In this document: positions 329 to 42,732 of the stretch, piece after piece
How positions within the stretch are numbered: the stretch's first letter is position 1
How the letters are laid out: each line of letters begins with the position of its first letter
From: Epithemia pelagica
Lineage: Eukaryota > Protista > Bacillariophyta
Direction of reading: 5' to 3'
Assembly (NCBI GenBank): GCA_946965045.2
Contig: OX337236.1
Span: 1,488,001-1,552,000 of the forward strand
DNA length: 64,000 nucleotides
Made by a program: the position numbers and the translations under genes
The notes under the pieces: model-generated
What the model saw: the letters and a program-made list of their open reading frames with translations, nothing else
What the model was told of the DNA's origin: nothing
Database searches by the model: none

Positions 329-407
329 GCTCCAAGACAACAAAGTCGACGAGAAGGAGTCCGAAGAAACGACCCCTGAGAATTGAGCGATTGTGATATG
401 TGTACTG

Positions 408-1001
408 AAATACAATATGAGTGCCAATCGAGAGATATAAGGGCTTCTGCTTTTATCGTATACCAATATGCTATTATCAATACCACATGCATCCTGGTCA
501 GCAGAACGAACGAAGAAAAACAAAATTCATAATATATGCTTTCCTAGTCAATTTATAATTCTTTGTTGCTGTATGATGAGAATATGAATTTAACTCTGCC
601 GTTGTAGCGATTCATGCCCGTTATCGAACACAGCAATTCTCTCTAACGTCTTGCTACCTGTTCCTACGAGCTTTCAAACAAAAAGTCTTGTTTCAGTCAT
701 TCCAGAACGGTTGGGCGTCTTACATTACTACTAGAGATTCGTCAAGGGTAAGTCCCCACTCACATTTTACGCGGTTGGAGGTGCACCTCCAAATCATACC
801 ATGACTGACCATTAAAATATTCATTGCTATATCATTGCCATATATATTTAACCGTTTCATCAACCGCCATGTTTGCTCAATTGTACTTTTTACTCTAGTG
901 TCCGTCCGTTTTCGGAACAGCTGGTCTTTCTGGAAATTCCCACCCCAGACCCCAAGCCTTCCGGCCCACCCGTCCCGTTCATACTGAACTCAGACGAACA
1001 A
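408..1001 (+). repeat. 594-bp dispersed direct repeat, copy 1
   Basis: AAATACAATATGAGTGCC...CAGACGAACAA matches 42139-42732; five substitutions seen by eye. Confidence 0.95.
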
Positions 1002-4168: not shown

Positions 4169-4775
4169 CGTGTTGGTTTGAGATCCTGTATTTTCTCAAT
4201 CGGTTGTATGGGAGACACAAGGGGGTGTGAAGTTGGACGCTATTATTTTTTTTGTTTCGTGTATGTTTGTCAGAATTTTTGTATCATGCGATCAATGTCG
4301 GGTTGGTGTTCCCGTTCGGCGCCTACCGCCTACGTTACTCCGAATGATCGGACAGGAAGAGGTACATCAATTACAGTCTGTTCCATGGGAGAGCAAACCA
4401 GGGATGCAATAAGCATATGTAAGATGTAAGTATAATGTGAGATGCAGTCTCTGATTTTTGCGATTGCCGCTTTGACGAGCAACTACGAGCACGAGTACAA
4501 TCCATAGCTCTACGAGTATGGATGACTCCATGACTCGGAAGCTCATAATTATTTACAACTCATCGTCCGTCCGATTATCGGAACAGTTATTAAGCATTAT
4601 TGCGGTCAAATGGAAGACTTATCAGGGAGATGGGGAGCGCAATTTGCTCTATTCCCTACCATTATCAAAGGCTTCACAAAGTCACGAGTAGCAGAACCAG
4701 TGCGAGTGGCCGTACCAGCTCGTACACTATAAAAACGGCTTTGGGCTTTGACCTTTGACATCTAAACTACGAGTA

Positions 4776-6488: not shown

Positions 6489-7338
6489 TAATATCACATA
6501 TCAAAATCTTCTGTCTGAAGTTCGAAGCTTTGGCCCCGAGACTGGAGATGGAGACCTAGAACTGTCAGCCATCTCAGACGCTTGCCAAATGGTTGGTCTC
6601 CCAGGGAAATCGAAACGCCACTGGCCATGAAGTTTGCCTCCGAATCCGAAGGATGAGTTGCTCCTCCATGCCATCCGTGGACGCCCTTTCTGAAGGCACG
6701 AAAAATCTCACGGGTTTGTTCATTCGCTCGTTTGCAGTACTTTTCATTCATTTAGTTATCGTCTTTTTTTGTAAAAGCTGGTGCTCGAGATGTCACAACG
6801 AAGTGGCATCTTTCATCCTTCTCGGGTCTCAAGTTTATCGGCTCGAGGACAAGAGGATCCTATATCATGATACTAGGGGTCTTACCACAGTTTAAGCTGT
6901 AAATGATTGTGGAAGTGCATCCATGGATGAAGGTCTACAAAGAAAGAACCTGTTTGAACTCAAGGGAGACACCGGCATGTTCTACATGCGACAAGCGTTC
7001 CATGTCTCACAGGGCGATCCCGGCCTACATTCGTATTTCGTAACTTCTACTTCTATCTGCCCCTCCATCCAACTATCTATCATCTTTCGTTTTCTCGTAC
7101 TTCTATGGTCGACAGGAACCTTCGTACAAGTTGTAGATCGTGGACTCCATTCTTTGCCAATTGCCAGAGTTGCATTCTCGTTACAACCACTGTTCAGCGG
7201 ATATCTTTGCATAAGCCCAAGTTTTGAAAGTTGGTTGGGTACATGACTGGTCATCTTTAGCCTCATTTTTTGTTTTGTGGCTTGTCGCGAGTAAGCTAGG
7301 AAGTCTATCCTGTGTGGTGTTACGCCCGATCTCCATAA

Positions 7339-19726: not shown

Positions 19727-20051
19727 GGTTCCACTTCTCAGAGTACCTCAAGAGCGCTTGAAAAATCTATTGTTGCGAACAAGGGACAACGACGTCTCGT
19801 ATTGGAAAAAGGAGAGCGCAAATCCTTCCATCTTCCATGGTGGGAGAGCAAAAAGTGTGATGGAAAGTTTCGCACGACCGTTGCTTCCGAATGTCGACTC
19901 ATAAGCGACTCCATATCGATTTGTTGTCGCACCGCGTTCAACGGTTCTTACATTCAAGATCAGGCGAAAGTGAAAGGACCTTTTCGCGCATTGGTTTTTG
20001 AAATTTCAGTAGCTTTAGTACCGAGTCCTACGTGCGCAAGCACCTCCGTCC

Positions 20052-21773
20052 ATGATGACCATGGCGGAACCCTCTACATCGACGCCAACAACCGAGAACA
20101 TGGCAGACGACGCAAGCACTAACACTCAAACCATCGATAATCAAGCGATCCCGTACGAAGGTGAGGAGAAAGAGTACACCCTCAAGTTTCTTTTCCGTCC
20201 CAAGGCCAGCAAAAACACCAACGTCGCGAAGAACCACTACGCGATTCTCCAAGCCATGCTCCAAGTCTTTCCTGAGATTGTTCTCTTCAACAATCATGGC
20301 GAAATCATCAATCCCAAGAAGCTCAAGACTATTCTGAACTATAACGATTATCTCCGCAATTTCAACCTCCACTTCTCCAAGGGCAATGCTGATAAGAATC
20401 GAGCCCCCATCTACATCGTTGTGCACCGCATTCGTTCAAGGATTCCTGTGAGCCAGATCAGGCGCGACAGCACAATTTCTCACATCTTGTCTGAAGGAAG
20501 AGCTAAAATGACTGTACACGGTTGGAACGAAGATGAAGTTCGCATTTCCAACATTGGTTTCTTCGTCGGATACGATCCTAGTAACATTCTTCATGAAGAA
20601 ATGGATGAATGGATCAAGAAGAAAATCTTTGAAAGTACTGGAACCATGCTCAAAAAGATCCCCAAGTTTCGATGTGGTTTCTCGTCACCATTCCTTGTTG
20701 ATGACGACGGATATCGATTCGCAACCAAGACATTTGACCTCCAATGCCGCCAACAAGATGCTAAGGAATTGATTGAACTGCTGTCGACGACGTATCGCGA
20801 CAATCCTCGATTCGTTTTTCACCGAGTTCGCCACTCTCAACCTGATACTTATCGCCGTGCTATCTTGAAGCAAAACGCATACCTCAAGAAATGTCGAATC
20901 GTACCCATTGAAGGATTATCTTCGGACATGTTGTGGTATGGGATGCGAGAACGTATAAATAGTATTCCTGGAGTACACCGAGTTACCAAACACCGAATGA
21001 CTGGTGAGAAAGGAAGATGGAGCATCCACACTGACATGCTTCATTTCAGTCAAGTCGTCACGGCCGTGAAGGGAAATTTAACACGTTGGGCTGATGAAGT
21101 GAGCGAAGCAAACACAATTCAAACTGGATATTCATTCTTACCAAGATTGGCATTTAAGAAGAACGCATTTGATGACTACGACGACGACGATGACGAATCA
21201 CACGCAAGTTCGTTTCAGACTTACATGACAGCTTGTAGTTCTCTCTATGCTGCCGACGAAGACGATTGTATGAACCCCCCATCGAATTCCGCTCCTGTTG
21301 CTCAAGCATGGGTTTGTCCTATCCAGATCAAAACCGTGGTTGCTGGTCAGAGAACGGAAGAAGCACAAAGCCAGATAACGCAGGACGATTACGACCGTCT
21401 CAAGTCCAAAAATGACAAATTGACCCGTGAAATCCGTGAGCTAAAGGACCAATTCAGACAATTTATGGAGGAACAAAAACAAGCTCGAACCACGACAGTG
21501 AGTCAACAAGAAAAGACCGATTTCAAAGCACTCTTAAAGGCAGCCATGACTGAAATCTGTGAAGAAATGACTCAAATGGCACAATCTCAAAACCAGAACA
21601 CTCCCAATAATAGCGAAGGAAATCGGGCAGAGGCACAAGAGCCAGCCAATAACGATTCAGAACAGCGGGCTACGTCCAATCTTGACGTAAGCATGGCACA
21701 GGCCAATTTGTCCTTTCATGCGGACGAATCCCTGATGCAATCAAGTCTGTTTAGCCATGACTCCGACTCATAG
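20052..21773 (+). CDS. LINE ORF1 (putative nucleic-acid chaperone with C-terminal coiled coil)
   Basis: 573-aa ORF starting 102 nt inside the left TSD and overlapping the ORF2 start by 17 nt; heptad region DYDRLKSKNDKLTREIRELKDQF. Confidence 0.85.
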   Translation: MMTMAEPSTSTPTTENMADDASTNTQTIDNQAIPYEGEEKEYTLKFLFRPKASKNTNVAKNHYAILQAMLQVFPEIVLFNNHGEIINPKKLKTILNYNDYLRNFNLHFSKGNADKNRAPIYIVVHRIRSRIPVSQIRRDSTISHILSEGRAKMTVHGWNEDEVRISNIGFFVGYDPSNILHEEMDEWIKKKIFESTGTMLKKIPKFRCGFSSPFLVDDDGYRFATKTFDLQCRQQDAKELIELLSTTYRDNPRFVFHRVRHSQPDTYRRAILKQNAYLKKCRIVPIEGLSSDMLWYGMRERINSIPGVHRVTKHRMTGEKGRWSIHTDMLHFSQVVTAVKGNLTRWADEVSEANTIQTGYSFLPRLAFKKNAFDDYDDDDDESHASSFQTYMTACSSLYAADEDDCMNPPSNSAPVAQAWVCPIQIKTVVAGQRTEEAQSQITQDDYDRLKSKNDKLTREIRELKDQFRQFMEEQKQARTTTVSQQEKTDFKALLKAAMTEICEEMTQMAQSQNQNTPNNSEGNRAEAQEPANNDSEQRATSNLDVSMAQANLSFHADESLMQSSLFSHDSDS

Positions 21774-24700
21774 AGACGACTATGTAAGCGATTACATAGA
21801 CTTTGCTCTTAATCACTACTCCGACAATTCTACACCCAATCACGACACCGAAGATGATATACTAGACGAACAAGCAGAGAATACCATTCTGGACGATAGA
21901 CAAACGCAACAGCAGAGAAATTACGCAAACAATCCTTATATCGGCACAGCACCACCAGAAGAAAAAGAAGATTATGTCTTCCGAGTATACGGCGCAAATA
22001 CAAATGGCTTCAATCTCGGACGTGATGGTGCAGACTTCTCCAAATTTTGTGAAGAAATGAAGAACCTAGAAGTGGATACTTGGTGTACTTTCGAGCATAA
22101 CCTGGATACATTGAAACCAAAGGTCAGAGAAGTTTTAGACACAACGGTCAGGAAACACTTCGACTACGCAAAACTTGTTACCAGCACCTCATCAATATCT
22201 TTACACCGGAGAAGTACTTTTAAACCAGGAGGAACACTCTTGGTAACACAAGGCCACTCAAGTGGACGAGTGGTTCGACAGGGACACGACAACCTTGGAC
22301 GATTGAGCTATCAGGTCTTATCTTGTAAGAACAGTCGCTCACTGACCATTGTGTCAGCATATCAAGTGTGTCAGCAGCAGATTTTGAACAATAATCGTGT
22401 TGCAAGCAGCACGGCATCATCTCAACAGATCAGTCTTCTTCGACAACAAGGCCGTTCTGAAAACCCTCGCATGGCTTTTGTTCACGACTTGGAAAACTTC
22501 TTAGACGAAAGAATACAAGCAGGGTCGGAAATCCTTCTGCTTGGAGACTTTAACGAAACCTTGAATGAGACTATGGACGGAATGACAAGACTTTGCTCAA
22601 ATTTACAGCTCACTGATCTGATGGAACAGGTAACCAATACGGAAGGCAATTTCGGGACTCACGCTAGAGGCAATCAACGAATCGATTATGCTCTATGTAC
22701 TGAACTGGTCGCACAAAGCGCGGTTAGAGGATGTTATGAACCCTTTGGCGAACGAACTAAAGGAGATCATCGTAATATGATCATTGATTTCGACTCGAGG
22801 ATCCTGTTTGGTAATATGACACAACCTCTCGGACCTATCTCAACAAGGGAGTTTACTGCGAAGGACAGATCGGCGGTTAGAAAATACATACAGGCAAAGC
22901 ACAAATATTTGCAGGAACATAATTTCGGACATCGATTGGCTTCTCTTGAACATGAGTGGAGTGCAGAGACAATGGAGCGATTAGACGCAGACTTCCAACG
23001 CGCTGGAAGATTTGCTGCCAATCAGTGCATCAAGAAACCACGCCAGATCGCATATGTAAGAGAATTAGCTGAACTGCGGAAAAAGAAGAATGTTCTGTTG
23101 AAATTGATATCTCAATACAAACTCCATCGCTCATATGCATCGGGAATCGCTCACGCAACAAGAGAGGGCTGCACATTCACACTTCCTAACAGTCTGGAGG
23201 AATGTATTGAAGAGTGCAAAGAGACTCAACAAAAGATACGGGAGATGACACGCGATGCCGCCACGAATCGTCGGAATGAACAACAGGTTGCTTTAGAAAC
23301 TGCTCGCATTAAGGGCGATACTAAGACTACCAAAGCTATTAAGCACAGAATGGCTGCTGAGAGGACAAAAACGATGTTTAACAAAATCCGCCAGTATCGA
23401 GGAACCCAAAAGACGGGTATTACACGATTGCAAGTACCCGTTGACGCTGACAATGTGAACTACGAACACTGCACAGAGTGGCTAACGATTGATACACCGG
23501 CAGAAATTGAAAGCCGTCTACTGCAACGGAACCAAAAGCACTTTGGGCAAGCCGAGGGCACCTTTCCGACCCAACCTCCCTTCTCCGAATGGGTGGATTG
23601 GGGAGCATCGACACACACCGCTGAACTAATTCTGAACGGTACATGGCAATCTACCGAGTTGGACGATCTTCAACAGTGTCTATTGCGTCACATGGAGAAA
23701 CGAACTGAGCTTGATTTGATGAAAGACACAATTAGCGTTGACGAATGGAGTGCCAAAATTAAAGCGTGGCCTGAATCGACAACGACGTCCCCGTCCGGGT
23801 TTCATCTTTCCCACAGTAAGGCCCTGTTGGCAGCACACGACATAGAGCCAGGAACTGAAAAAGCAAGTGACATCGAACGTATGCGAAATGATCTTATTGA
23901 GTGGCAAGTTGGTCTACTCAACAATGCGATTCGACATCAATATTCTTTCGAAAGGTGGCAAAAGATAGTCAATGTTATGATCCTGAAAGAGCCGTCGAAT
24001 ATCAAGATCCACCGATTGCGCGTTATTCATTTATACGAGCAAGACTATAACTTGCTTTTGGCTGTAAAGTGGAGAAAGTTGATTCAACATGGAGCACAGC
24101 ATCAGTTACTACATGCATCTCAATTTGGTGCCGTTCCAGGTCGTGACGCCGTAATTCCAACAATGATCGAAGAGTTTCAGTACGAAATAAGTCGCGCCAG
24201 CAAGAGACCGATGGTGCACCTCGACTACGATGCAACAGCTTGCTATGACAGAATTGTCATGTCTTTTGGTGGATTAGCATCACGAAGTTTCGGACAGCAT
24301 CGTTCTGTGGTCTTTATCAATGCAACAACACTCACGGAAGCAAAGTATTATCTCAAAACTCAATTGGGAGTGTCTGAGAGATTCTATAAGCATTGTACAA
24401 TATACCCAATTTACGGCTCTGGGCAGGGCGCGGGGAATTCTCCGGCCATCTGGTGTGTGATAAGCTCGATCCTATTCGAGACCTATGAAGACAAGGCACA
24501 TGGAGCAACATTCTATTCTCCTGATCGAAAAACATCTGCCCAAGTACTCATGGTCGGTTTTGTTGATGATACCAGCGGAAGCGTCAACGATTTCCTTCTC
24601 CCGAAAGCAGCCAGTCCTGAACACTATATTCAACGCGCCTCAGCCGATGCACAACGATGGAACGACCTCCTGTCTCTTTCGGGAGGATCTCTGAATCAAA

Positions 24701-27576
24701 GAAAGTGTTCCTACCATTTCTTGTATTATCAATTCACTGTGGATGGTTTGCCCTTCTTGACAAGTGGACGATTTGGCCCCACGATTTCGATCACATTCAA
24801 TGAATCCGCATCCCCGTGTCCATTGAAACAATTGTCTGCGTATGAAAGTCACAAAACGTTGGGAGTGTACAAAGCGCCTTCTTCCACTGATAACTCCCAA
24901 TACACGGCCCTGTGCAAGAAGAATGGTGAACACGCTCGTGTTGTGGCCAGTAGTCCGTTGTCCCGCACTGATGTTTGGGCATACTATCATGCCATTTACC
25001 TACCAAGTGTAACTTACGTCTTCCCGTCATCGTCGCTATCGAAGGAACATTGTGACAAATTGCAACGTGTGTTCAAGAACGCTTTTCTACCACGCTACGG
25101 GTACAACAGACATACACCGAACGCTGTTGTTTTTGGCTCTTCAGACTTTGGAGGACTGGGATTGCGTACATTGTTCATCGAACGAGGGATTGCCCAAATC
25201 TATGGTCTACTAGCTTGTCTGCGCTCTTGTGGTGTTGCTTCCCAATTGGCTAGCATCATGCTAAGCTGGGGACAACTGTTGGCTGGAACTGGATCTCCGA
25301 TTCTGCAAGACACGATAAACGACCTCCCTCATTTGGATCCCATGTGTTGGCTACCGACTCTGCGTGCTTCTTTATCTTGTATGAACTGTACTATCGAGCT
25401 GGCTGATACGCATGTTCCTCCTGTTCAGCGGGAACATGATCTGTTTGTTATGGACAAAGCCCTTACTGTGACTCACAAACCTATTGATTTGCAGTTCATC
25501 AACGCTTGCCGACTATACCTTGGAATCACTTTTCTTAGTGACATGGTTACCCCTGCTGGAACTCAAATTTGTCAATTCGCCTTACAAGGGTATCAATCCA
25601 CGCAAACGCAACCTAAACTATTGTTTCCGTACCAAAATCGACCTGGCAGTAAAGCATGGAAAGTCTGGAAAAACTTTCTCCGAACATTGATCACACCTGG
25701 TACTACGTGCAACCTTCGTGTCTGTCTTGGACGCTGGTTAGTCACTGGTTCTGCTCTCTATCGAGAGTGGAATACTTGTCTTGTTCCAGAACGGAGTCAA
25801 GTCTTGATTCGTACGCCTAACACGGATCAGTTCACAATTTGCATTCCTACTGCCGATTACCGTGGGTTCTGTGCTACTCATTCCAGCTGTCCTCTTCTCC
25901 CCTCCACTGCACTTCCCGTATTTACTCTGCAACGCAACAACGTTCACATTTTGGCGCACTTTGCCTACGCATCTTGCTCCGACCCTACACCTAATCCTTC
26001 TGCATCTTTCCCAGACGTTATTTCCTCCTTGGAGCGTTGGGAAAGAGAACTTCTTTGTGGCGTCTCGTTTTTGTGTCCTCTCGAGCAGCTTCATGCTATT
26101 TTTACGTCACATGACTCGGCAACACAGCTGCCGTTACATCTTTGCGGAGATGGTTCCGTTAATCACTTTGTGGGCTCATTTGGTGGGTCCTGTTCCGATG
26201 ACGCAGGCTTACGATTGTTTCATATCAAGGGACCTGCACCAGGTTATCGTACAACATCGTATCGCGCGGAAAGCTACGCCTTTCTAGCTTGGTTACGCCT
26301 CATCTTTCGACTGTGTGAATTTTTCGAATGCCCGCTGCCGTCACAACTGGCAATTTACTCGGATTCGGAAAGCATGTTGAAGACGATACAGCAACGTTTA
26401 GAGTGGACCGTTGACTACCCCTACACAACAATGAGTCCCGATTGGGATCTTCACCAAGCTATCACAACCACACTGCGCCTATTCCCTAACCTGCCTCACT
26501 GTCAACATGTGAAAGGCCATCAAGACAGATTTTTTGCGTTTGACGATCTTCCTTTACCCGCGCAATTGAATGTGGAGGCAGATGAGCTTGCCTCCCAGTT
26601 TGTATACCCTCCGGATTTGCCAAGCACCATCGTTCCTCTTATCGCAGGCACGGTGGCGCAATTACATTGTGCTACTGGCACCATTACCTCCAACTATCGA
26701 GCCGTACTTCGTCGCTTATACAACGAACCTTTGATCCGCGAGCACATTTGTTCTCGGATGGAATGGTCAACTGACACCTGGAACCTGGTTGACTGGACGT
26801 CTCACTGCAGAGCCGTTCGTGCAAATTTTCCGCGACGCCATTTCTTGTCCAAATACCTCCACAATTGGCTGCCCTTGGGGCATCTAGTTTTGCGCTATGC
26901 TGATCATTACCCAGACACATGTGCCTCTTGTTCTCACCAAGCTCACGAAGATCGCGAGCATTTTCTGCGTTGTCCGGCCCGCCGGTCGTGGATTGGCCCT
27001 CTGTTCGATGACTTGAAGCAATTTTGGCAGGACCAGTCGGTTGCCCCTTCCATTGTCGATCTATTGTCCACTGCACTTCATTCTTGGCTTTCGGATACCC
27101 CTATTTCTCTCCCGTCCCTGACCCCATCATTGGCTCGTGTGGTGGCTCAACAAACTCTTATCGGTTGGGACCAACTGTTTCTTGGTCGCTTCGCTTGTTC
27201 CTGGTCTTCAGTACAAGAGGATCATCTCCGGTCTCTGGAGATTGATTCATCCAAGAGTATTTCCGGCACTGCCTTTGTCTCAGGTACCATTCAACTCTTA
27301 TTTCACCATTTGTTCCTCCTCTGGACTCGTCGCAACGAGGATGTCCATGGACGCGATTCATTGACACGCGAAGCTGCCGCTCTCGTTCTGGCTAAAAGAG
27401 AGATTCGATCCCTTTATCAACACCGTAACGCTGTTCCCACTGAGTTACAGCAGATCTTCTACACCGATCCAGATACACACTTCGACTTTCACACAACCTC
27501 TTCATCTCTTCAGTCCTGGCTTGCTACCTGGAAGCCAGTTATACTACAATCTTCATCTTCACCCAACAACGCCTAA
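21757..27576 (+). CDS. LINE ORF2: AP endonuclease, reverse transcriptase, RNase H, C-terminal CCHC
   Basis: APE: GANTNG, LLGDFNE, RIDY, GDHR. RT: DATACYDRI, GSGQG, GFVDD. RNase H: GDGS, RAES, YSDSES, HVKGHQD, NVEADELA. CCHC: CASC...HFLRC. Confidence 0.95.
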   Translation: MTPTHRDDYVSDYIDFALNHYSDNSTPNHDTEDDILDEQAENTILDDRQTQQQRNYANNPYIGTAPPEEKEDYVFRVYGANTNGFNLGRDGADFSKFCEEMKNLEVDTWCTFEHNLDTLKPKVREVLDTTVRKHFDYAKLVTSTSSISLHRRSTFKPGGTLLVTQGHSSGRVVRQGHDNLGRLSYQVLSCKNSRSLTIVSAYQVCQQQILNNNRVASSTASSQQISLLRQQGRSENPRMAFVHDLENFLDERIQAGSEILLLGDFNETLNETMDGMTRLCSNLQLTDLMEQVTNTEGNFGTHARGNQRIDYALCTELVAQSAVRGCYEPFGERTKGDHRNMIIDFDSRILFGNMTQPLGPISTREFTAKDRSAVRKYIQAKHKYLQEHNFGHRLASLEHEWSAETMERLDADFQRAGRFAANQCIKKPRQIAYVRELAELRKKKNVLLKLISQYKLHRSYASGIAHATREGCTFTLPNSLEECIEECKETQQKIREMTRDAATNRRNEQQVALETARIKGDTKTTKAIKHRMAAERTKTMFNKIRQYRGTQKTGITRLQVPVDADNVNYEHCTEWLTIDTPAEIESRLLQRNQKHFGQAEGTFPTQPPFSEWVDWGASTHTAELILNGTWQSTELDDLQQCLLRHMEKRTELDLMKDTISVDEWSAKIKAWPESTTTSPSGFHLSHSKALLAAHDIEPGTEKASDIERMRNDLIEWQVGLLNNAIRHQYSFERWQKIVNVMILKEPSNIKIHRLRVIHLYEQDYNLLLAVKWRKLIQHGAQHQLLHASQFGAVPGRDAVIPTMIEEFQYEISRASKRPMVHLDYDATACYDRIVMSFGGLASRSFGQHRSVVFINATTLTEAKYYLKTQLGVSERFYKHCTIYPIYGSGQGAGNSPAIWCVISSILFETYEDKAHGATFYSPDRKTSAQVLMVGFVDDTSGSVNDFLLPKAASPEHYIQRASADAQRWNDLLSLSGGSLNQRKCSYHFLYYQFTVDGLPFLTSGRFGPTISITFNESASPCPLKQLSAYESHKTLGVYKAPSSTDNSQYTALCKKNGEHARVVASSPLSRTDVWAYYHAIYLPSVTYVFPSSSLSKEHCDKLQRVFKNAFLPRYGYNRHTPNAVVFGSSDFGGLGLRTLFIERGIAQIYGLLACLRSCGVASQLASIMLSWGQLLAGTGSPILQDTINDLPHLDPMCWLPTLRASLSCMNCTIELADTHVPPVQREHDLFVMDKALTVTHKPIDLQFINACRLYLGITFLSDMVTPAGTQICQFALQGYQSTQTQPKLLFPYQNRPGSKAWKVWKNFLRTLITPGTTCNLRVCLGRWLVTGSALYREWNTCLVPERSQVLIRTPNTDQFTICIPTADYRGFCATHSSCPLLPSTALPVFTLQRNNVHILAHFAYASCSDPTPNPSASFPDVISSLERWERELLCGVSFLCPLEQLHAIFTSHDSATQLPLHLCGDGSVNHFVGSFGGSCSDDAGLRLFHIKGPAPGYRTTSYRAESYAFLAWLRLIFRLCEFFECPLPSQLAIYSDSESMLKTIQQRLEWTVDYPYTTMSPDWDLHQAITTTLRLFPNLPHCQHVKGHQDRFFAFDDLPLPAQLNVEADELASQFVYPPDLPSTIVPLIAGTVAQLHCATGTITSNYRAVLRRLYNEPLIREHICSRMEWSTDTWNLVDWTSHCRAVRANFPRRHFLSKYLHNWLPLGHLVLRYADHYPDTCASCSHQAHEDREHFLRCPARRSWIGPLFDDLKQFWQDQSVAPSIVDLLSTALHSWLSDTPISLPSLTPSLARVVAQQTLIGWDQLFLGRFACSWSSVQEDHLRSLEIDSSKSISGTAFVSGTIQLLFHHLFLLWTRRNEDVHGRDSLTREAAALVLAKREIRSLYQHRNAVPTELQQIFYTDPDTHFDFHTTSSSLQSWLATWKPVILQSSSSPNNA

Positions 27577-27654
27577 CTAACATTCCTACCTGGTTAGTCC
27601 TCGCCTTGTTACCAAGGCCGGGCGCGTCGGTCGACTCTACTCTGCGCGGGTGAG

Positions 27655-27720
27655 TGTATAAATCCTGCCACTACACGCTACAACACGGTGTATACGGCGT
27701 GCAGTGGCAGGATTTATACA
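27655..27720. repeat. 66-nt terminal hairpin; its first 49 nt are the left TIR
   Basis: TGTATAAATCCTGCCACT (27655-27672) pairs perfectly with AGTGGCAGGATTTATACA (27703-27720); the stem extends via ACACGC/GCGTGC with one mismatch. Confidence 0.95.
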
Positions 27721-27735
27721 GTTTATCAGACCCAA
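27721..27735 (+). other. Putative primer-binding site, half-tRNA type
   Basis: GTTTATCAGACCCAA directly follows the hairpin-terminal CA and resembles GGTTATG(G/A)GCCC-type PBSs of Drosophila copia and Ty5. Its reverse complement reads as an anticodon arm: TGGGT-CTGATAA-AC. Confidence 0.45.
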
Positions 27736-27743
27736 GCTGCAGA

Positions 27744-27814
27744 GCTGCAGTGGTATAGAGGTTAATGCTTGCTGTTGGCTCGTAAGGTCAGGGGTTCGAA
27801 TCCCCTCTGCTACA
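27744..27814 (+). ncRNA. tRNA-like element (pseudo-tRNA / Pol III type-2 promoter) in the copia leader
   Basis: A-box-like TGGTATAGAGG (27751-27761); D stem GTAT/ATGC; perfect T arm AGGGG-TTCGAAT-CCCCT (B box GGTTCGAATCC); acceptor stem 5/7 paired; anticodon arm irregular. Confidence 0.7.
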
Positions 27815-28502
27815 GCTTTAAGTTTAAGACCCTCAATTTCTGGGGGCCGCCATATTTGGGGTGTATGGCACAAGACGTTTCCCCGCTGGTATATAGAGCA
27901 TGTTCTCAAGAGAGGCCGTTTGAACCTGAGCCTTCGGGCAACACTGGATCTACCTCTTTGTTCATACGCTATGTGCTAGGTGGACGGGGGAACGAATATG
28001 TATCTTTTATCTAACTCACCAACTATGCTAGCTAAGCTATGCATCATGTGAAACTCCTTGGAGTCTTGCACTCTGCCTTTTGCCCGTACTGGCAGCGGCT
28101 GATCACCGCTTGGGAGTGTTCGCGCTAAGCTACTCGTCACGGTATGCTTGCGGCACTACTTACAGTTCACACTCGTGGTGTGTGTCCCATGGCACTCTCC
28201 CACGTGACGGGGAGCACTCGCTTAAGTGAGCGATTGTTTTGGTAATCTTTTCTCCATACATGAAAATATAGATACCTCCTTTTGCACTGTGCCGACGCAC
28301 ACGTCCTAAGTATTTGTTCTCTGCCGACTGCAGCGCAAACGCAAGTCGACACTACTTGTGCACCTTAATTCCAGGTAGAATCGCAAAATCTGCGATCTGC
28401 ATCACCTTTTGGCAATGCCTCCACACTTCTGTGTTTTTTGCCTGTGTTTTGCTCTGAACCTCTCCTGCTTCTGGCTCTCTTGCTTTCCTTTTGCCTTCCA
28501 CC

Positions 28503-30041
28503 ATGTCTTCATCCACTGCCCCTGAAAATCCCAAGGAAGATTTCAAGGCTGCCGTTAAACGCTGTGGATACAATGATGCCACCGTTACCTACATCATTGA
28601 GCAGGGTTTTGATGATGCTCAATCGTTCATGACTGTTGCGGTCCATCAAGTGCCGTCGATGTTGAAGATGATGGCGAAGACCCCTCCAGAGAACGGGGCC
28701 TTTCCCTTCAGTGCTAACCTGCAGCTCCACGGCTTCCGAATGTGGCTCGAATACCGTTCGTCTCGTGGTCAGGCTCTTAAAGTCTCACTTTTCTCTGATC
28801 CGCCCCTGATCAAGAAATGGACCAAACGTACCCAGGAACTGTTTGCACTCAACAAGGAAGTTGCCTCCGATGAACTGACCCCACCGAAAGAGTTGACTTC
28901 GTTTACTCAGTGGGAGGTGTTTAACGATGCCTTGCTCACGTTCCTCGCACAGCATCGCAATCCCACAACGGGTGTCCCTTTGACATACGTCCTTCGTGAA
29001 ACTAAGCCTGTCGGTTCTGAAGCAAGGAATGCTGCCTACGATACTATCGATGACGATTTGATTGCTACTACTATCCTGCAAGGTGATCAGTATGCCCTTG
29101 ACAATCAACGCGTCTTCACACTGATGAAACCTTTTCTCGTTGGCGGACCTGGCCTGACGTTCATCAAGCCACACCAAAAGAAGAAGGACGGCCGTGAGGC
29201 GTATCTTGCGTTGACTCGCCAAGCTACTGGAACAGCAGCTGTCACCATCCGCAAGAAAGAAGCATACGCTGCTATTGCCGACGCGAAGTTTACAGGCCGC
29301 GGTCGTTTCTCGTATCAACAATATGTTCACCGCCATCAGAAAGCTCATAATACGTTGGCTGAACTTGATGAACCCGTTGCCGAAACCAAAAAGGTAACCA
29401 ATTTCCTCAAAGGTATATCGGATCCCTCTTTGGCGGCGGGAAAGACGGTCGTCAACGGTGACGCAGCAAAGCTTTCTGATTTTGAAGCATGCCAGCAGTA
29501 TTTTGGCACGTTGATTGCTGCATCCCGTACCGACAAGACCAATGACGAGAATCGAAAGATTGCTGGTGTGGGTACGACTAAGACTAGTGGAAAGAAGAAT
29601 GGTCGTAACAAGCAGAATAAAAAGAAGACACGTCATTACAGTTTGGATGAATGGCGCAAGCTCTCTGATGAAGAGAAGGCCGAAATCCTCCGTGCCCGTA
29701 AAGAACAGAAAGACGCTAATGGAAAGCGCAAGGCCGGAGCCGTGCGAACTGAAGATGAAAATGGCTCTCGCAAGTTGAGTAAAACTGAAACTCCAAAGTC
29801 TGATGACATGAAATTGGAGACCACTGACCTGGATGGCGACGACGCGCCGAACCATTCCGAGCCTGATCCTCCTGTTGCTGATGAACCGACTGTTCCCAAA
29901 ACCTCAGCCGGAAACAGTTTCGGACGCTTTGCCCATAGTAAAAAAGGATCTACAAAGCCGCACAACCCTGATGAAACCAAGGAGCCTACAACTGCCGTTG
30001 CGAAAGCTGCCCTTGCTGATAAGGCCACAAAGCAGACCTGA
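28503..30041 (+). CDS. gag: Copia Gag (diatom CoDi type)
   Basis: ATG at 28503; GVPLTYVLRE, DNQRVFTL, DGREAYLAL, KVTNFLKGISDP resemble copia gag; ends in TGA in frame with pol. Confidence 0.85.
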   Translation: MSSSTAPENPKEDFKAAVKRCGYNDATVTYIIEQGFDDAQSFMTVAVHQVPSMLKMMAKTPPENGAFPFSANLQLHGFRMWLEYRSSRGQALKVSLFSDPPLIKKWTKRTQELFALNKEVASDELTPPKELTSFTQWEVFNDALLTFLAQHRNPTTGVPLTYVLRETKPVGSEARNAAYDTIDDDLIATTILQGDQYALDNQRVFTLMKPFLVGGPGLTFIKPHQKKKDGREAYLALTRQATGTAAVTIRKKEAYAAIADAKFTGRGRFSYQQYVHRHQKAHNTLAELDEPVAETKKVTNFLKGISDPSLAAGKTVVNGDAAKLSDFEACQQYFGTLIAASRTDKTNDENRKIAGVGTTKTSGKKNGRNKQNKKKTRHYSLDEWRKLSDEEKAEILRARKEQKDANGKRKAGAVRTEDENGSRKLSKTETPKSDDMKLETTDLDGDDAPNHSEPDPPVADEPTVPKTSAGNSFGRFAHSKKGSTKPHNPDETKEPTTAVAKAALADKATKQT

Positions 30042-33000
30042 GGCTGTGTGCCCAGTGATGAAATTGATAAAACGAATCTTATCCGTCCACATTTCTCACT
30101 TGTAGGCACCCCTACCTTCAGCTTAGCCTTTGCACACCGTTTATGTGCTGCCGTATCACAGTCCCATACCACTGATCCGATTGATCTGACATGTGAAATG
30201 GACTCGCATGCTGACACTTGTTGTGTTGGTCGCAACTTTGTGAAATTCAGGGAACCTGACCGTTACATCACTGTTTCCCCGTTCTCAGAGGAATATAAAC
30301 CCCTCGAGCGTATCCCCGTCACCACGACCGCCACTGTCTGGACTGATGCCCACAACAATAGTTATCTATTGCTGTTTCACGAGTCGTTATTCTTCGGGGA
30401 CCGATTGTCCCAATCATTGATTTGTCCCAATCAACTGCGTTCAAACGGTCTCATTGTCCATGATGTGCCGCGTCAGTTTGACCCTTACAGCACACACAGC
30501 ATTCGTATTCCCGATGCTGACCTGACCATTCCTCTAGAAATGTCCGGTGTCATCTCTGGCTTCGCGACCACGAAGCCAACCCCGGAGGAGCTCGAGTCGC
30601 TCCCACGGATAGTCATGACTGCTGATTCGGTGTGGCACCCTCATTCGTCCACCTTTGCTGCCGCGGAGGAGAAAGCCAATGCATCCAATGCATCTGCTGT
30701 CCGCCAAGTTGATCCGAATTCGATTGCCGCATCCTGCGTCCCGCGATTGGTTGCTGCCGTCCGATCATACGACGAAACCTATGGCTATTGCATGGAACTT
30801 GAGAATGACGAGGATGAACTATGCAACCGCTTAGTTGCTGCCGTTCGAGTGTCCCATCCACCGAGTGCCGAAGACACTGTGGACATTGAGGACCTTGATC
30901 CCGACGAATACTTTCTCAAAGCCGTTAAGTCTGCTTCGTCACGACCAACGAAAGCCGTAAAAGTCTTGCCATCTTCTTCTAAGACTGTACTTGATCCCCA
31001 GACCTTGTCTTCTCGATGGAATGTCGGCCTTACTAAGGCCAAGAAGACTTTACAAGTGACAACCCAGGCTGGGGTCCGAAATGTCCTTGTCCCATCCGAA
31101 CGCAAGGTCCGAAAGAAAGCTCCATGGCTCAAATTCCCGAATGTCAAGGGACGATGGTTTTGCGACGAGATGTTCTCCAAGTGCCCATCGCTTGATCTTC
31201 ACACGGGTGCTTCCGTATTTACTGATGGAAAGGGCTATGATTTTGTCTATCCCTGGAAATCAAAGAAGCAACACCCTGAAGGTCTGATGTCCCTTATCCA
31301 GAATGTCGGAATTCCTCAGACGTTAATTTCTGATGGTGCGCAAGAGCTATTTCATGGACGTTCTCGTGAGATCTGTAATGAGTACCGTATCAAACAAGAA
31401 GTGACCGTCCCTTACAGTCAATGGCAGAATGCCGCCGAAGCGAGCATCCGTGAGTTGAAGAAAGGTGTTATTAGGAAGTTACGTCAAACTGGTGCACCAC
31501 GACGCACATGGTCCTATGCGCTGAAGTGGGTTGCCTCTGTCCGCCAGTTAACTGCCTCTGATATCCCTGAACTTAATGGACGAACGCCATTTGAACACGT
31601 TCTTGGATCGACACCCGACATCTCTCCCATGGCTTTGTTTGATTTCTATCAACCTGTATACTATTATACGCCGTCGCATGACTTCCCTCATGAGCGTAAA
31701 TGTATTGGGCGCTGGCTTGGTCTTGCCGATGACTGTATTGATGACATGGCCTTCAACGTCTTGACAGAGAAAGGTCGAGTTATTGTCCGAAAAGATGTGT
31801 GGGCAATCCCTGACGACGATATGAAAAATCCCACAATCCGTCAACAACTGGAAGTCTATGATGGTCTTATCAAGACTCTCCTTGTGGATACATCGCCGTC
31901 TTCCGATGAAGATGCCGCCAACGTTTCCCCAGATCCACCCGATGATTTCTTTGGAGAAGACGAAAGCGAATCTCTCTTTCCTGCTGCTCTTGACTCCGAT
32001 ACACCTCTCCCTGATGCTGACGACTACACTCCGGAGGAGTTAGACGAATATCTCACAGCCGAAGTCATGCTGCCGCATGGCGGGGACCAGGCCAGAGCCA
32101 AGATCATAGGCCGCTCCAAAGATGAACATGGCCGACCAATTGGCAAACGTGATCCAAATCCAATCTTAGACACACGTTTCTATGACGTGCTGTATCCCGA
32201 TGGATCGACCGAATCTCTTGCTGCCAATCTCATTGCCGAGAACCTTTACTCTCAAGTCGACACTGAGGGCAACTCCTATGCCATTGTAAAGGATATCATT
32301 GGACATCGCAAAACCAAGGACGCTGTCCTCCGAACGGATCCGGACTGGTTGAATGGCCGTAAACGCCATACAACCGTTGGTTGGGAACATGAGTGTGAAC
32401 TCTCCGATGGTTCTACTGTTTGGATCCCTCTCAAAGATCTCAAAAACGATTCGCCTGTACAACTAGCCGAATATGCTGTTGCGGCGGGGCTTGCCAAAGA
32501 ACCGGCCTATGCCTGGTGGGTTCCACATACGTTACGCAAACGTGGTGTGATTCTTGCGAAAGTAAAATCTCGCTATTGGAAACGTACCCACAAATATGGC
32601 ATTGAACTGCCCAAAACCGTTCAAGAAGCTCTTGAGATTGATCGTCGAACGGGGACTGATTTCTGGCGGAAAGCCATCGAAAAGGAGATGAAAAATGTTC
32701 GCATTGCCTTTGAATTCCGTGATGATGACAAAGTACCAATTGGATACAAACATATCCCATGTCATATGGTCTTTGATGTCAAGTCTGATCTTCGCCGTAA
32801 AGCCCGACTGGTTGCCGGCGGGCATAAGACTGATCCACCGAAGGAATCCACGTACTCCAGTGTTGTATCCCGTGATAGCGTACGAATTGCATTCACTATC
32901 GCTGCCCTTAATGGCCTGGACGTGTTGGCCGGGGACGTACAAAATGCATACCTCAATGCACCAACAAAAGAGCGAACTTATATTACGGCGGGACTAGAAT

Positions 33001-34298
33001 TTGGTCCCGAAAACGTTGGCCGACCTGCACTGATTGTTCGTGCTCTGTATGGTTTGAAGAGTTCTGCTGCTCGTTGGCGTGATCACATTGCCGCAACACT
33101 TCGTGAAATGAAGTTCAAAAGTTGCTTGGCTGACCCTGATGTCTGGCTTCGACCTCAAGTCCGACCATCTGATGGGTTCCAATACTATGAGTATGTACTT
33201 GTCTACATAGACGACATACTCTGTGTCAGTCATGATCCGCGATCGATCATGAATGATCTGGAAAAACGGTATACAATCAAACCCGAGAGTATTAAAGACC
33301 CAGACGAATACTTGGGATCTGAGATTCGACACTATACCATACCAGATACTGACGATCCTGAGAACAAACCCCGATGGGCCATGTCCTCCGACAAATATGT
33401 TAAACGTGCCATATCTGAAATTGAGACCGAACTGTCTAAAGTTGGCCAAAAGCTACAGACACGAGTCTCAACTCCGCTTGCCACTGGGTATCGTCCTGAG
33501 ATCGACTCATCTCCTGAACTGGACCCCCGACGTGCAAATTACTATCAGGGACTAATTGGTATCCTTCGTTGGGTTGTGGAACTTGGTCGTATCGATATCA
33601 TTGTTGCCGTATCACAACTGTCCCGATATCTAGCCATGCCACGTGAAGGACACCTCGAACAAACCTTGCACATTTTTGCATACCTAAAAGCGCATGGACG
33701 TTCCACCCTAGTGTTCGACGACACAACTCCGACCTTCGACGAGGATCGTTTCTTCCAGGCAGACTGGTCTGAATACTACCCTGATGCTAGTGACCCTTTG
33801 CCGCCCAATATGCCACCACCTCGTGGACGGGCTGTTACCACAACTTGTTTTGTTGATGCCGATCACGCTGGTTGTCTTGCTACGCGTCGCTCACAAACTG
33901 GTATTCTTATGTTCTTACAACGAGCACCTATCTTGTGGTATTCCAAACGACAGAGTACTGTTGAGACATCAACATTTGGCTCCGAATTTGTCGCAATGAA
34001 GACTGCCATCGAACAGATAGAGGGTTTCCGTTACAAGTTGAGAATGATGGGCATTCCACTTGATGGCGAAACCAATGTGTTCTGTGATAATGAATCTGTG
34101 TTCAAGAGTGCAACCATGCCTGAAGTCACTCTGAAGAAGAAACACAATGCGATTGCTTACCATCGCACACGTGAGGCACAAGCCGCCAACATCGTGCGTA
34201 TCGCCTGGGAAGAAGGTGAAACCAATCTTGCGGACCTGCTGACAAAATCGTTACCAGGACCCCGATTGCGTTTTCTAGCACAACGTGTTTTGTGGTGA
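30042..34298 (+). CDS. pol: Copia Pol: protease, DDE integrase, reverse transcriptase, RNase H
   Basis: PR: MDSHADTCC. IN: WFCD, LISDGAQE, QNAAEASIRELK. RT: KARLVAGG, DVQNAYL, LYGLKSS, YIDDIL. RH: FVDADHAG, STFGSE, CDNESV, NLADLLTK. No internal stops. Confidence 0.96.
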   Translation, partial: GCVPSDEIDKTNLIRPHFSLVGTPTFSLAFAHRLCAAVSQSHTTDPIDLTCEMDSHADTCCVGRNFVKFREPDRYITVSPFSEEYKPLERIPVTTTATVWTDAHNNSYLLLFHESLFFGDRLSQSLICPNQLRSNGLIVHDVPRQFDPYSTHSIRIPDADLTIPLEMSGVISGFATTKPTPEELESLPRIVMTADSVWHPHSSTFAAAEEKANASNASAVRQVDPNSIAASCVPRLVAAVRSYDETYGYCMELENDEDELCNRLVAAVRVSHPPSAEDTVDIEDLDPDEYFLKAVKSASSRPTKAVKVLPSSSKTVLDPQTLSSRWNVGLTKAKKTLQVTTQAGVRNVLVPSERKVRKKAPWLKFPNVKGRWFCDEMFSKCPSLDLHTGASVFTDGKGYDFVYPWKSKKQHPEGLMSLIQNVGIPQTLISDGAQELFHGRSREICNEYRIKQEVTVPYSQWQNAAEASIRELKKGVIRKLRQTGAPRRTWSYALKWVASVRQLTASDIPELNGRTPFEHVLGSTPDISPMALFDFYQPVYYYTPSHDFPHERKCIGRWLGLADDCIDDMAFNVLTEKGRVIVRKDVWAIPDDDMKNPTIRQQLEVYDGLIKTLLVDTSPSSDEDAANVSPDPPDDFFGEDESESLFPAALDSDTPLPDADDYTPEELDEYLTAEVMLPHGGDQARAKIIGRSKDEHGRPIGKRDPNPILDTRFYDVLYPDGSTESLAANLIAENLYSQVDTEGNSYAIVKDIIGHRKTKDAVLRTDPDWLNGRKRHTTVGWEHECELSDGSTVWIPLKDLKNDSPVQLAEYAVAAGLAKEPAYAWWVPHTLRKRGVILAKVKSRYWKRTHKYGIELPKTVQEALEIDRRTGTDFWRKAIEKEMKNVRIAFEFRDDDKVPIGYKHIPCHMVFDVKSDLRRKARLVAGGHKTDPPKESTYSSVVSRDSVRIAFTIAALNGLDVLAGDVQNAYLNAPTKERTYITAGLEFGPENVGRPALIVRALYGLKSSAARWRDHIAATLREMKFKSCLADPDVWLRPQVRPSDGFQYYEYVLVYIDDILCVSHDPRSIMNDLEKRYTIKPESIKDPDEYLGSEIRHYTIPDTDDPENKPRWAMSSDKYVKRAISEIETELSKVGQKLQTRVSTPLATGYRPEIDSSPELDPRRANYYQGLIGILRWVVELGRIDIIVAVSQLSRYLAMPREGHLEQTLHIFAYLKAHGRSTLVFDDTTPTFDEDRFFQADWSEYYPDASDPLPPNMPPPRGRAVTTTCFVDADHAGCLATRRSQTGILMFLQRAPILWYSKRQSTVETSTFGSEFVAMKTAIEQIEGFRYKLRMMGIPLDGETNVFCDNESVFKSATMPEVTLKKKHNAIAYHRTREAQAANIVRIAWEEGETNLADLLTKSLPGPRLRFLAQRVLW

Positions 34299-34577
34299 TT
34301 ACATGATCGAATTCATTGTCCTCACACCCCTCTTTTATTGTCCGAATGGACACCCCTCTTAATTGAGAAAAAATAGTCCTGATGGACCGGCCTCTGCTGA
34401 AACAAGTCGTGGGCGACCTAATCGAAATGCTTCCGATCTAGCTCGCGGGGACTGAATAAATCCCGCCAACAGGTCGCATATTGGCGGATACATGGTCGCA
34501 TATTGGCGAATATGCATCGCCTACATATGCTGCTACGCATCTAGTTTTCTAGTCATAATTTTGGTCTAGCCACTTGT

Positions 34578-34626
34578 TGCACGCCGTATACACCGTGTTG
34601 TAGCGTGTAGTGGCAGGATTTATACA
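34578..34626. repeat. Right 49-bp terminal inverted repeat of the copia element
   Basis: TGCACGCCGTATACACCGTGTTGTAGCGTGTAGTGGCAGGATTTATACA is the reverse complement of 27655-27703. Confidence 0.97.
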
Positions 34627-34781
34627 TGAGTACGGCAGCGTTAAAATAGACTAGGACTTTTTTTTTTTTTTCGCGTTCAACGGTTCTTCGCTTTCCCTGT
34701 TGTGGAATCGCCATCGACTTCCTTGCACTCAGGTTGTCATGTTGTTGCTGGTCGAAATTGACCAGACGTTCGTGGACGCGT

Positions 34782-41610: not shown

Positions 41611-42138
41611 TATAGAATTAAATCTATCCATTCCCTTTTGACTCAAGAGGTAAGACACTAACGATATGGAAACCAGGGTGTCGGGGATGGTTCCCATGTT
41701 AACGTCTTTTACCTTGCTACTACGTTCAACAAGCTCTAGAGCTGAGATTTCTAATGGACTTTGTTGTTGCATCTACCTAATCATTTAGATTTATATCTCT
41801 ATGATTTGCATGTTGCCCATTGCCCACTCGTGGTTTTCCAAGAAGCTCCGAAACGAGGACATCGGTAGATTGTGGAAACACAGATAGCGGGAACAGAAGC
41901 AGTAGTCTGTAGGCAATGTGGGGATGTCTGTCCTTCTGTCATATCGTTACTGTCCGCTACACTGTACATGAGATTTTCCTGTAAAAGCAAAACAACGAGC
42001 AACAAGCAATTACAAAACCTGAGCTCAGGTTTTGTCGGAGCAAAAGTTGAAACGACAGAAAACCCGGATTTGACATCATATTTCCCGTGACGTGTCACGC
42101 TCCAGGTTTGGTTTTGTCAATGCTAAAGGATCAGCCTC

Positions 42139-42732
42139 AAATACAATATGAGTGCCAATCGAGAGATATAAGGGCTTCTGCTTTTATCGTATACCAATAT
42201 GCTATTATCAATACCACATGCATCCTGGTCAGCAGAACGAACGAAGAAAAACAAAATTCATAATATATGCTTTCCTAGTCAATTTATAATTCCTTGTTAC
42301 TGTAAGATGATAATATGAATTTAACTCTGCCGTTGTAGCGATTCATGCCCGTTATCGAACACAGCAATTCTCTCTAACGTCTTGCTACCTGTTCCTACGA
42401 GCTTTCAAACAAAAAGTCTTGTTTCAGTCATTCCAGAACGGTTGGGCGTCTTACATTACTACTAGAGATTCGTCAAGGGTAAGTCCCCACTCACATTTTA
42501 CGCGGTTGGAGGTGCACCTCCAAATCATACCATGACTGACCATTAAAATATTCATTGCTATATCATTGCCATATATATTTAACCGTTTCATCAACCGCCA
42601 TGTTTGCTCAATTGTACTTTTTCCTCTAGTGTCCGTCCGTTTTCGGAACAGCTGGTCTTTCTGGAAATTCCCACCCCAGACCCCAAGCCTTCCGGCCCAC
42701 CCGTCCCGTTCATACTGAACTCAGACGAACAA
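42139..42732 (+). repeat. 594-bp dispersed direct repeat, copy 2
   Basis: Matches 408-1001 at offset 41731. Confidence 0.95.

What the first reader, a model, noticed from the sequence alone, without database searches (positions are those of the whole stretch)
27655..27720. 66-nt hairpin left terminus with a flipped, truncated copy at the right end: possible PPT-independent snap-back replication
Seen: the left end folds into an 18-bp perfect stem (24 bp with one mismatch) around an 18-nt loop. The right end has the loop in the opposite orientation, and only GCCAC(TTGT) remains of the inner arm (34569-34577). Inference: a primer at the PBS copies the 18-nt repeat, jumps to the identical 18 nt at the RNA 3' end, and completes the minus strand. 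Its 3' end (...GCCACT) then anneals near its own 5' end (ACAAGTGGC) and copies the TIR, generating the left hairpin without a PPT. The flip/flop arrangement recalls parvoviral ITRs.
Basis: inference. Interest (0 to 1): 0.8.

Follow-up and report, generated by a model that had tools for sequence, protein, structure and literature searches.

The report
Copia copy with folded-back 5' end
One copy of an otherwise ordinary jumping gene, likely from a diatom, has a short DNA hairpin where its left terminal repeat should be, likely a copying slip in which the first short DNA product folded back on itself and was still inserted into the genome, rather than a new way of replicating.

Summary
The hairpin is real: an 18-bp perfect stem, and a 49-bp perfect inverted repeat with the right end. 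It is the left end of a 6,972-bp Ty1/Copia element with a 4-bp target duplication. The element has its clade's polypurine tract (34445-34452) followed by an ordinary 174-bp 3' LTR, with 30 nt identical to the nearest relative's PPT/LTR junction. 0 of 40 LTR|PBS junctions in relatives carry such a hairpin, and a contig from another sample has foreign DNA at the U3 end. Best reading: a one-off reverse-transcription product in which self-primed strong-stop DNA replaced the PPT-primed plus strand and was integrated with two U5 ends. Self-priming is known in vitro for HIV-1 as a dead end; I found no report of an integrated case. Other copies in this genome could not be read. The scan has not noted this hairpin elsewhere, but an unchecked note reports palindrome-ended, Copia-tipped elements in this genome.

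The parts
27651..27654 (+). left 4-bp target-site duplication (TGAG)
   Evidence: same 4 bases at 34627-34630; contigs of runs X1 and X3 join 27650 to 34627, skipping 6976 = 6972 + 4
27655..27703 (-). inverted copy of the last 49 nt of the LTR (inferred minus-strand strong-stop DNA, R-U5); gives a U5-type TG/CA end on the left
   Evidence: 100% complementary to 34578-34626; U5-type rather than U3-type bases at both diagnostic positions of the first 16 nt
27704..27720 (+). last 17 nt of U5, inferred to be re-copied after fold-back; closes the hairpin
   Evidence: simulated fold-back of a 48- or 49-nt strong stop equals the observed 66 nt
27721..27734 (+). primer-binding site GTTTATCAGACCCA; inferred to pair with the anticodon arm of a tRNA half, likely tRNA-Ile
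   Evidence: same motif follows the LTR end in 40 distinct junctions of relatives; the primer identity is inference, not tested
27744..27814 (+). tRNA-like sequence with A- and B-box-like motifs in the 5' leader
   Evidence: ARAGORN tRNA-Pro call; Rfam RF00005 34.2 bits, cut-off 29; follows LTR end + PBS in a contig of run X2; no B-box within 120 nt of the PBS in 40 relatives
28458..30041 (+). gag-position ORF, 527 aa stop to stop, no CCHC knuckle, ends in TGA in frame with pol
   Evidence: no Pfam hit
30042..34298 (+). pol, 1418 aa, order PR-IN-RT-RH (DSHAD at 54; D375-D431-E466; YIDD at 1055; RNase H-type acidic motifs from 1272)
   Evidence: RVT_2 E 2e-17; rve in 15 of 29 aligned members; profile hits to retroviral integrase cores at positions 371-449; motif positions
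34445..34452 (+). polypurine tract GCGGGGAC directly before the LTR's TG
   Evidence: conserved clade motif; inside a 30-nt block identical to relative L001
34453..34626 (+). complete 3' LTR, 174 bp, TG...CA, own terminal inverted repeat of 16 nt with 2 mismatches
   Evidence: relatives' PPT-to-PBS spans are 154-506 nt, median 228 (26 loci)
34554..34559 (+). TATA-like CATAAT, 24 nt before the inferred start of R (34578)
   Evidence: aligns with TATAAT in the L001 LTR; role inferred
34627..34630 (+). right 4-bp target-site duplication (TGAG)
21736..27576 (+). ORF of a non-LTR-type retroelement; the Copia copy sits in its 3' stem-loop/T-run tail (27593-27654 and 34631-34671)
   Evidence: 1946 aa, weak RVT_1 hit E 0.001; tail is multi-copy and variable in runs X1, X3, X5; pre-insertion tail folds at -37.7 kcal/mol, no shuffle control

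Best explanation
This is one copy of a conventional Ty1/Copia LTR retrotransposon, likely of a diatom, whose 5' LTR is replaced by a 66-nt hairpin made of LTR-end sequence, likely because the short minus-strand strong-stop DNA folded back and primed itself during one round of reverse transcription. Shown: the PPT, the complete 3' LTR, the PBS, the 4-bp TSD, and the exact sequence fit of the fold-back. Inferred steps: (1) a tRNA half at the PBS primes copying of about 49 nt (R-U5, RNA start near 34578); (2) the 3' end GCGTGCA pairs back on TACACGC (6 of 7 pairs) and is extended over 17 nt of U5 and into the tRNA primer, so that it ends in a plus-sense PBS; (3) this hairpin stands in for the PPT-primed plus strong-stop DNA and anneals by its PBS to a normal full-length minus strand from a second priming event; (4) both strands are completed, giving linear DNA with a U5 end on each side, which integrase inserts. 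The copy has no U3 promoter upstream and is likely unable to launch itself.
For: PPT|TG junction and 174-bp LTR, with 30 nt identical to nearest relative L001, which has an ordinary 189-bp LTR. Of 20 strong-stop lengths simulated (40-59 nt), only 48 and 49 give the observed 66 nt, exactly, with the C-A mismatch. A 6-of-7 match at a random inverted register in this LTR has frequency 0.0033. The left tip is U5-type at both diagnostic positions. A TATA-like motif lies 24 nt before the inferred start and aligns in L001. 0 of 40 relative junctions have a fold-back; 35 of 40 have a PPT 140-520 nt upstream. Run X5 has foreign DNA before 34452, so the U3 end serves as a terminus in another copy. Run X2 joins 38 nt of LTR end in normal orientation to a PBS. 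Self-priming of minus strong-stop DNA is a known RT reaction that nucleocapsid suppresses (PMC6088434, passages of section 5.1), and this Gag has no CCHC knuckle.
Against: No other copy from the window's own genome could be read, so 'one-off' is not shown. The X2 joint covers only 38 nt of LTR and cannot tell a normal 5' LTR from a flipped hairpin. The X5 flank is one contig in a low-depth metagenome run. The RNA start is unmapped, the 49-nt RNA is not unusually structured (z 0.3), and the DNA hairpin of the strong stop is weak (-5.4 kcal/mol). In HIV-1 such products are called dead ends and are not detected in endogenous reactions (PMC6088434). Relatives are seen mostly as collapsed single LTRs in metagenome contigs, where a rare hairpin copy would be lost. 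29 of 66 loci with enough downstream DNA missed the strict PPT pattern.
Confidence: 0.6

Rival explanations
1. The same fold-back is a recurrent or heritable side route in this family: hairpin-primed plus strands regularly give copies with two U5 ends, some of which spread or seed palindrome-ended non-autonomous elements.
For: The family is young and multi-copy (39 proteins in the cluster; the 15 listed are 98.3-99.6% identical to this POL). Gag lacks a CCHC knuckle. An unchecked note (e1-10289252) reports an element in this genome with 98-bp palindromes at both ends and Copia-like tips; 98 is twice the 49 nt seen here.
Against: No hairpin-type joint listed in runs X1-X6 (tables cut). 0 of 40 in relatives. 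Look-ups by sequence with both ends found no look-alike window, so the palindrome element may belong to another Copia group. The copy lacks U3.
Confidence: 0.15
2. A normal two-LTR insertion was rearranged later: a double template switch during host DNA replication, helped by the LTR's own 16-nt terminal inverted repeat, replaced U3 by an inverted U5 piece.
For: The TSD would survive; U3 and U5 tips match at 14 of 16 nt, which offers one switch point.
Against: By inspection of the junctions, either direction of synthesis needs one of the two switches to use only 1-2 nt of homology in order to leave U5-type bases at the tip and keep the C-A mismatch; fold-back of the strong stop needs no such step.
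Confidence: 0.12
3. One reading: a PPT-free family cycle with an 18-nt R, in which the finished minus strand anneals near its own 5' end and builds the left hairpin, giving flip/flop ends as in parvoviruses.
For: The 18-nt direct repeat and GCCAC at 34569-34573 exist; a PBS follows the hairpin.
Against: PPT and full LTR present and conserved; the model predicts 70 nt, not 66; the U3 end is a terminus in X5; 0 of 40 relatives.
Confidence: 0.05
4. Assembly or library artefact (a fold-back chimera at a repeat edge).
For: No raw reads of the source assembly were available; the site lies in a multi-copy tail.
Against: The hairpin begins exactly at an integrase-type TG next to a clean 4-bp duplication confirmed by an empty-site joint, and its inner junction has the geometry of self-priming.
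Confidence: 0.06

Closest known systems
CoDi Ty1/Copia elements of diatoms (Maumus et al. 2009, PMC2806351; passages and section 18 read, supplements not readable)
   Same: PR-IN-RT-RH order, 7 kb (reported 5.2-8.1 kb), TG/CA LTR of 174 bp (reported 153-844), extended LTR terminal repeat, a stop between gag and pol, no CCHC (reported only in CoDi6.2-6.5), 4-bp TSD as for Blackbeard. The cluster of a 57%-identical relative holds a protein named from Fragilaria crotonensis.
   Different: Described copies have LTR pairs 94-100% identical; this copy has one LTR and a 66-nt hairpin. No CoDi reference sequence was compared, so the CoDi group is unassigned.
Self-priming of HIV-1 minus-strand strong-stop DNA at cTAR (review PMC6088434, passages of section 5.1)
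   Same: The 3' end of the strong-stop DNA folds into a hairpin and RT extends it back over U5.
   Different: Described there as an in vitro dead end suppressed by NC; here the inferred product was completed and integrated. Inferred R-U5 is only about 49 nt.
Conserved Hairpin Site of fungal GalEa Copia elements (Donnart et al. 2017, PMC5445492; passages read)
   Same: A hairpin at the 5' LTR/leader junction in a Copia branch that includes CoDi-like clades.
   Different: The CHS replaces the PBS, lies after an intact 5' LTR and is conserved; here the PBS is intact, the LTR is replaced and the hairpin is not conserved.
Helenus/TRIMp3 (Kojima 2024, PMC10886601; abstract, passages and section 3.6 read)
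   Same: tRNA-like A/B-box sequence in an LTR element; PBS likely matching a tRNA anticodon arm, as reported there for fungal Copia.
   Different: Helenus are short, non-coding, with the tRNA-like part inside both LTRs; here it lies once, behind the PBS of a coding element.
Parvoviral flip/flop hairpin ends and DIRS inverted repeats (recalled, no call)
   Same: A terminal palindrome with a reversed loop; inverted termini.
   Different: No Rep-like or tyrosine-recombinase gene was detected; DDE integrase, PBS, PPT and TSD present; only one end is a hairpin and no second isomer is shown.

Membership tests
Ty1/Copia LTR retrotransposon | pol order PR-IN-RT-RH with Copia-type RT | tested here: met
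   motif order; RVT_2 in 29 of 29 and rve in 15 of 29 aligned members; integrase core hits before RT
Ty1/Copia LTR retrotransposon | PBS directly behind the 5' terminus | tested here: met
   27721-27734; same motif at 40 relative junctions
Ty1/Copia LTR retrotransposon | PPT directly before the 3' LTR | tested here: met
   34445-34452
Ty1/Copia LTR retrotransposon | TG...CA ends and a 4-6 bp target duplication | tested here: met
   4-bp TGAG, empty-site joint
Ty1/Copia LTR retrotransposon | two direct-repeat LTRs in this copy | tested here: not met
   only 18 nt (24 with one mismatch) repeat directly; read as a defect of this copy, since relatives show PPT-LTR-PBS and L020 holds LTR sequence at both ends. 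The copy is therefore filed as an aberrant derivative, not as an intact member.
Ty1/Copia LTR retrotransposon | two direct-repeat LTRs in other copies of the same family | tested here: inconclusive
   X5 flank at the U3 end and X2 LTR-PBS joint of 38 nt fit; no whole copy read
CoDi (diatom Copia) groups | RT clusters with a named CoDi group | not tested
   no named CoDi sequence on hand; only a Fragilaria-named member in a related cluster
Parvovirus-like flip/flop termini | both loop isomers at hairpin ends, and a Rep/NS1 resolvase | tested here: not met
   no Rep-like domain in either ORF; right end is not a hairpin (z -2.2 and -0.8); isomer counts across copies could not be made
GalEa CHS elements | PBS absent, conserved hairpin behind an intact 5' LTR | tested here: not met
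   PBS present; hairpin in 0 of 40 relatives
Self-primed strong-stop product | fold-back point equals the RNA 5' end | not testable with these tools
   no RNA holder listed; TATA-like spacing fits

The most novel reading that the evidence does not exclude
In this Copia family, whose Gag has no zinc knuckle, self-primed strong-stop hairpins routinely replace PPT priming and are integrated, so that LTR elements give rise to inverted-ended copies and to palindrome-ended non-autonomous parasites: a natural, PPT-independent branch of LTR reverse transcription, caught here at its first step.
Probability: 0.15. Interest if true: 0.72.

Novelty: new variant of a known kind. Interest (0 to 1): 0.36.

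Why it matters
As a one-off, it is a genomic record that a reaction known as an in vitro dead end of retroviral reverse transcription can be completed and integrated, that this integrase accepts two U5 ends, and it predicts the RNA start of the family to the base. If recurrent, it offers a route from LTR elements to inverted- or palindrome-ended elements. It is not evidence for a new replication system, and LTR-finding software would miss such copies or call them TIR elements.

Tried and rejected
Own genome: none held, so copies could not be compared; this leaves the main question open. No RNA holder listed. Viral contigs: no POL relative among 32 pattern matches; 14 matches to the 17-nt U5 tip extend to no more than 17-21 nt and were rejected as chance. 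Rfam miRNA hits on the hairpin are far below gathering scores. X3's loose end before 34450 could be a flank or another family's PPT, so it was not counted. Summed contig depth over the LTR is higher than over the body, but it is no copy number and was not used. X4's 172-nt contig covering 34456-34626 fits a repeat bounded at both LTR ends, but depth is 2.9; hint only. A 5-bp TSD reading (TGAGT) was rejected because it breaks the 49-nt repeat and the TG end. Auto-integration (PMC7197481, passages) was rejected because the inner junction is not at an LTR end. A 58-nt strong stop also folds back but gives 70 nt. The tRNA-like sequence as the element's own primer: by inspection it has no complement to the PBS; as a Pol III promoter it lies behind the PBS and meets a T4 run at 28005, so it would not launch the element. 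The 300-bp window repeat at 405/42136 has no match to the leader or tail. Long palindromes in L042 and L057 are not at a PBS. The tree is the quick version only. Paper searches showed no integrated element with such an end; most hits were seen as listings only, Repbase and subscription journals are not covered, and the supplements of PMC2806351 (CoDi LTR and TSD tables) could not be read.

Full report
Observation. The hairpin is as described. 27655-27678 and 27697-27720 are 24-nt arms, 96% complementary, 18 nt apart, and 27655-27703 is a perfect inverted copy of 34578-34626. As DNA it folds at -25 kcal/mol, z -8.7, 0 of 200 shuffles; the last 66 nt of the right end do not form such a hairpin (z -2.2 and -0.8). 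The terminal 18-mer occurs three times in the window, 0.02 expected.

The element. 27655-34626 (6,972 bp) holds a 527-aa ORF ending in TGA and, in the same frame, a 1418-aa pol. Motifs run PR (DSHAD 54), IN (D375, D431, E466), RT (YIDD 1055), RNase H. RVT_2 hits all 29 aligned members and rve 15 of 29; the profile hits retroviral integrase cores. Contigs of runs X1 and X3 join 27650 to 34627, which gives a 4-bp duplication TGAG; the target is a multi-copy tail of a non-LTR element, so that joint may come from a paralogous tail, but it fixes the pre-insertion sequence either way. The POL cluster has 39 members; the 15 listed are 98.3-99.6% identical to this one, so the family is young. A related cluster holds a protein named from Fragilaria crotonensis. 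Size, LTR length, stop between gag and pol and 4-bp TSD fit diatom CoDi elements (PMC2806351, passages and section 18). Host and CoDi group are inferred, not shown.

The PPT is there. I fetched 79 metagenome and 22 MAG-contig loci. Of 91 that reach the end of pol, 66 have at least 350 nt downstream; 37 of these match a strict NNGGGGAC|TG pattern, and 26 loci span from it to the PBS motif over 154-506 nt, median 228. The window has this motif at 34445-34452, so its 3' LTR is 34453-34626, 174 bp, with its own 16-nt terminal inverted repeat with 2 mismatches. The nearest relative with DNA, L001 (82% over the last 223 aa; sister in the quick tree, SH-aLRT 88), shares 30 identical nt across the PPT/U3 junction and has an ordinary 189-bp LTR.

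The hairpin is not a clade feature. With 14 further loci from MAG bins, there are 40 distinct LTR|PBS junctions; none has an inverted copy of its last 15 nt within 150 nt (best 4 mismatches, window 0), and 35 have a PPT 140-520 nt upstream. These are mostly collapsed single LTRs in short-read contigs, which is what direct repeats give, and a rare aberrant copy would not show. For the same family: run X5 has a contig with foreign DNA before 34452, so U3 is a terminus in some copy; run X2 joins the last 38 nt of the LTR, in normal orientation, to a PBS and the tRNA-like leader, which fits a normal 5' LTR but is too short to exclude a flipped hairpin. No strand-change joint was listed in X1-X6, with loose-end tables cut. 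The window's own genome is not held.

Mechanism. The left end reads: reverse complement of the LTR's last 49 nt, then its last 17 nt, then the PBS. [quoted passage not shown] Lengths 48 and 49 reproduce the 66 nt exactly; at 49 the 3' end pairs 6 of 7 with a terminal pair, and the one C-A mismatch is the mismatch seen in the stem. Such a match occurs at 0.33% of random inverted registers in this LTR. The tip carries U5 bases at both positions where U3 and U5 differ. A TATA-like CATAAT lies 24 nt before 34578 and aligns with TATAAT in L001, which fits an RNA start there (inference). Extension into the tRNA primer would leave a plus-sense PBS, the same handle that the normal plus strong-stop DNA carries, so the hairpin could anneal to a normal minus strand and be completed into linear DNA with two U5 ends (inference from the standard scheme, as summarised in PMC7197481, passages). 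A later double template switch in the chromosome needs one switch with 1-2 nt of homology. An artefact is unlikely given the clean TSD but cannot be excluded without reads.

Known systems. Self-priming of minus strong-stop DNA is described for HIV-1 in vitro, as a dead end that nucleocapsid suppresses and that is not detected in endogenous reactions (PMC6088434, passages of section 5.1). This Gag has no CCHC motif, which is usual for CoDi outside CoDi6 (PMC2806351). The GalEa conserved hairpin replaces the PBS behind an intact LTR (PMC5445492, passages), and Helenus carries tRNA-like sequence inside LTRs (PMC10886601, abstract, passages, section 3.6); neither matches. Parvoviral and DIRS ends are recalled comparisons only. 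Nine paper searches showed no integrated element with this kind of end; coverage is limited to open papers, and most hits were seen as listings.

Against my reading. 'One-off' is not shown, the RNA start is unmapped, the strong-stop hairpin is weak (-5.4 kcal/mol) and the corresponding RNA is not unusually structured (z 0.3 for 49 nt, -1.5 for 58 nt). An unchecked note on this genome (e1-10289252) describes a non-coding element with 98-bp palindromes at both ends and Copia-like tips. If its arms are this family's 49-nt R-U5, fold-back is a recurring route; look-ups with this element's ends found no look-alike window, so the link is open.

Verdict. Observation confirmed; interpretation partly supported (fold-back yes, PPT-free replication cycle no). 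An aberrant copy of a conventional Copia family, best explained as an integrated self-primed strong-stop product (0.6). Interest 0.36; 0.72 if the route proves recurrent (probability 0.15).

Noticed in passing
window 30039-30041 and L001-L094: gag and pol are in one frame, separated by a single stop across the clade. Of 48 relative loci with the protease motif, 38 have an in-frame TGA with at least 200 open codons upstream, 4 TGA with the upstream part cut by the contig end, 1 TAG, 3 are fused and 2 show no stop before the contig end; CTA is the commonest next codon (11 of 39). The window has TGA-GGC. It suggests conserved UGA readthrough, as in Candida Tca2 (PMC2194720, abstract).
   Followed up: partly
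window 27744-27814: tRNA-like A/B-box sequence directly behind the PBS, present with variants in other copies of this family but not in 40 relative leaders. Origin (SINE head or captured tRNA) and role unknown.
   Followed up: partly
window 27721-28070: The first 350 nt of the leader are much less covered and more variable than the body in runs X1-X3, with a 98-nt skip in X1: the family has several leader variants.
   Followed up: no
window 21736-27654 and 34631-34671: Non-LTR-type element with a 1946-aa ORF (and a 584-aa ORF at 20019-21773); its 3' stem-loop and T-run tail is shared by many variable copies and is split by the Copia insertion.
   Followed up: partly
window 4774-6490: Element with 46-bp inverted ends (98% complementary) around 16-bp tandem-like repeats; looks like a non-autonomous DNA transposon.
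   Followed up: no
window 405-704 and 42136-42435: 300-bp direct repeat, 98% identical, with no match to the Copia leader or the LINE tail.
   Followed up: partly
L004:1-16134: Head-to-tail copies of a related Copia with a 7,014-bp period sharing single LTRs: a tandem array or an assembly of a circle.
   Followed up: no
L057:1759-2282: Long imperfect palindrome (arms up to 33 nt perfect) downstream of a related pol, with no PBS or PPT near it.
   Followed up: no
L080-L101: Eukaryote-type Copia contigs sit inside several bacterial MAG bins, 13 of the 22 in one bin: likely binning contamination.
   Followed up: no
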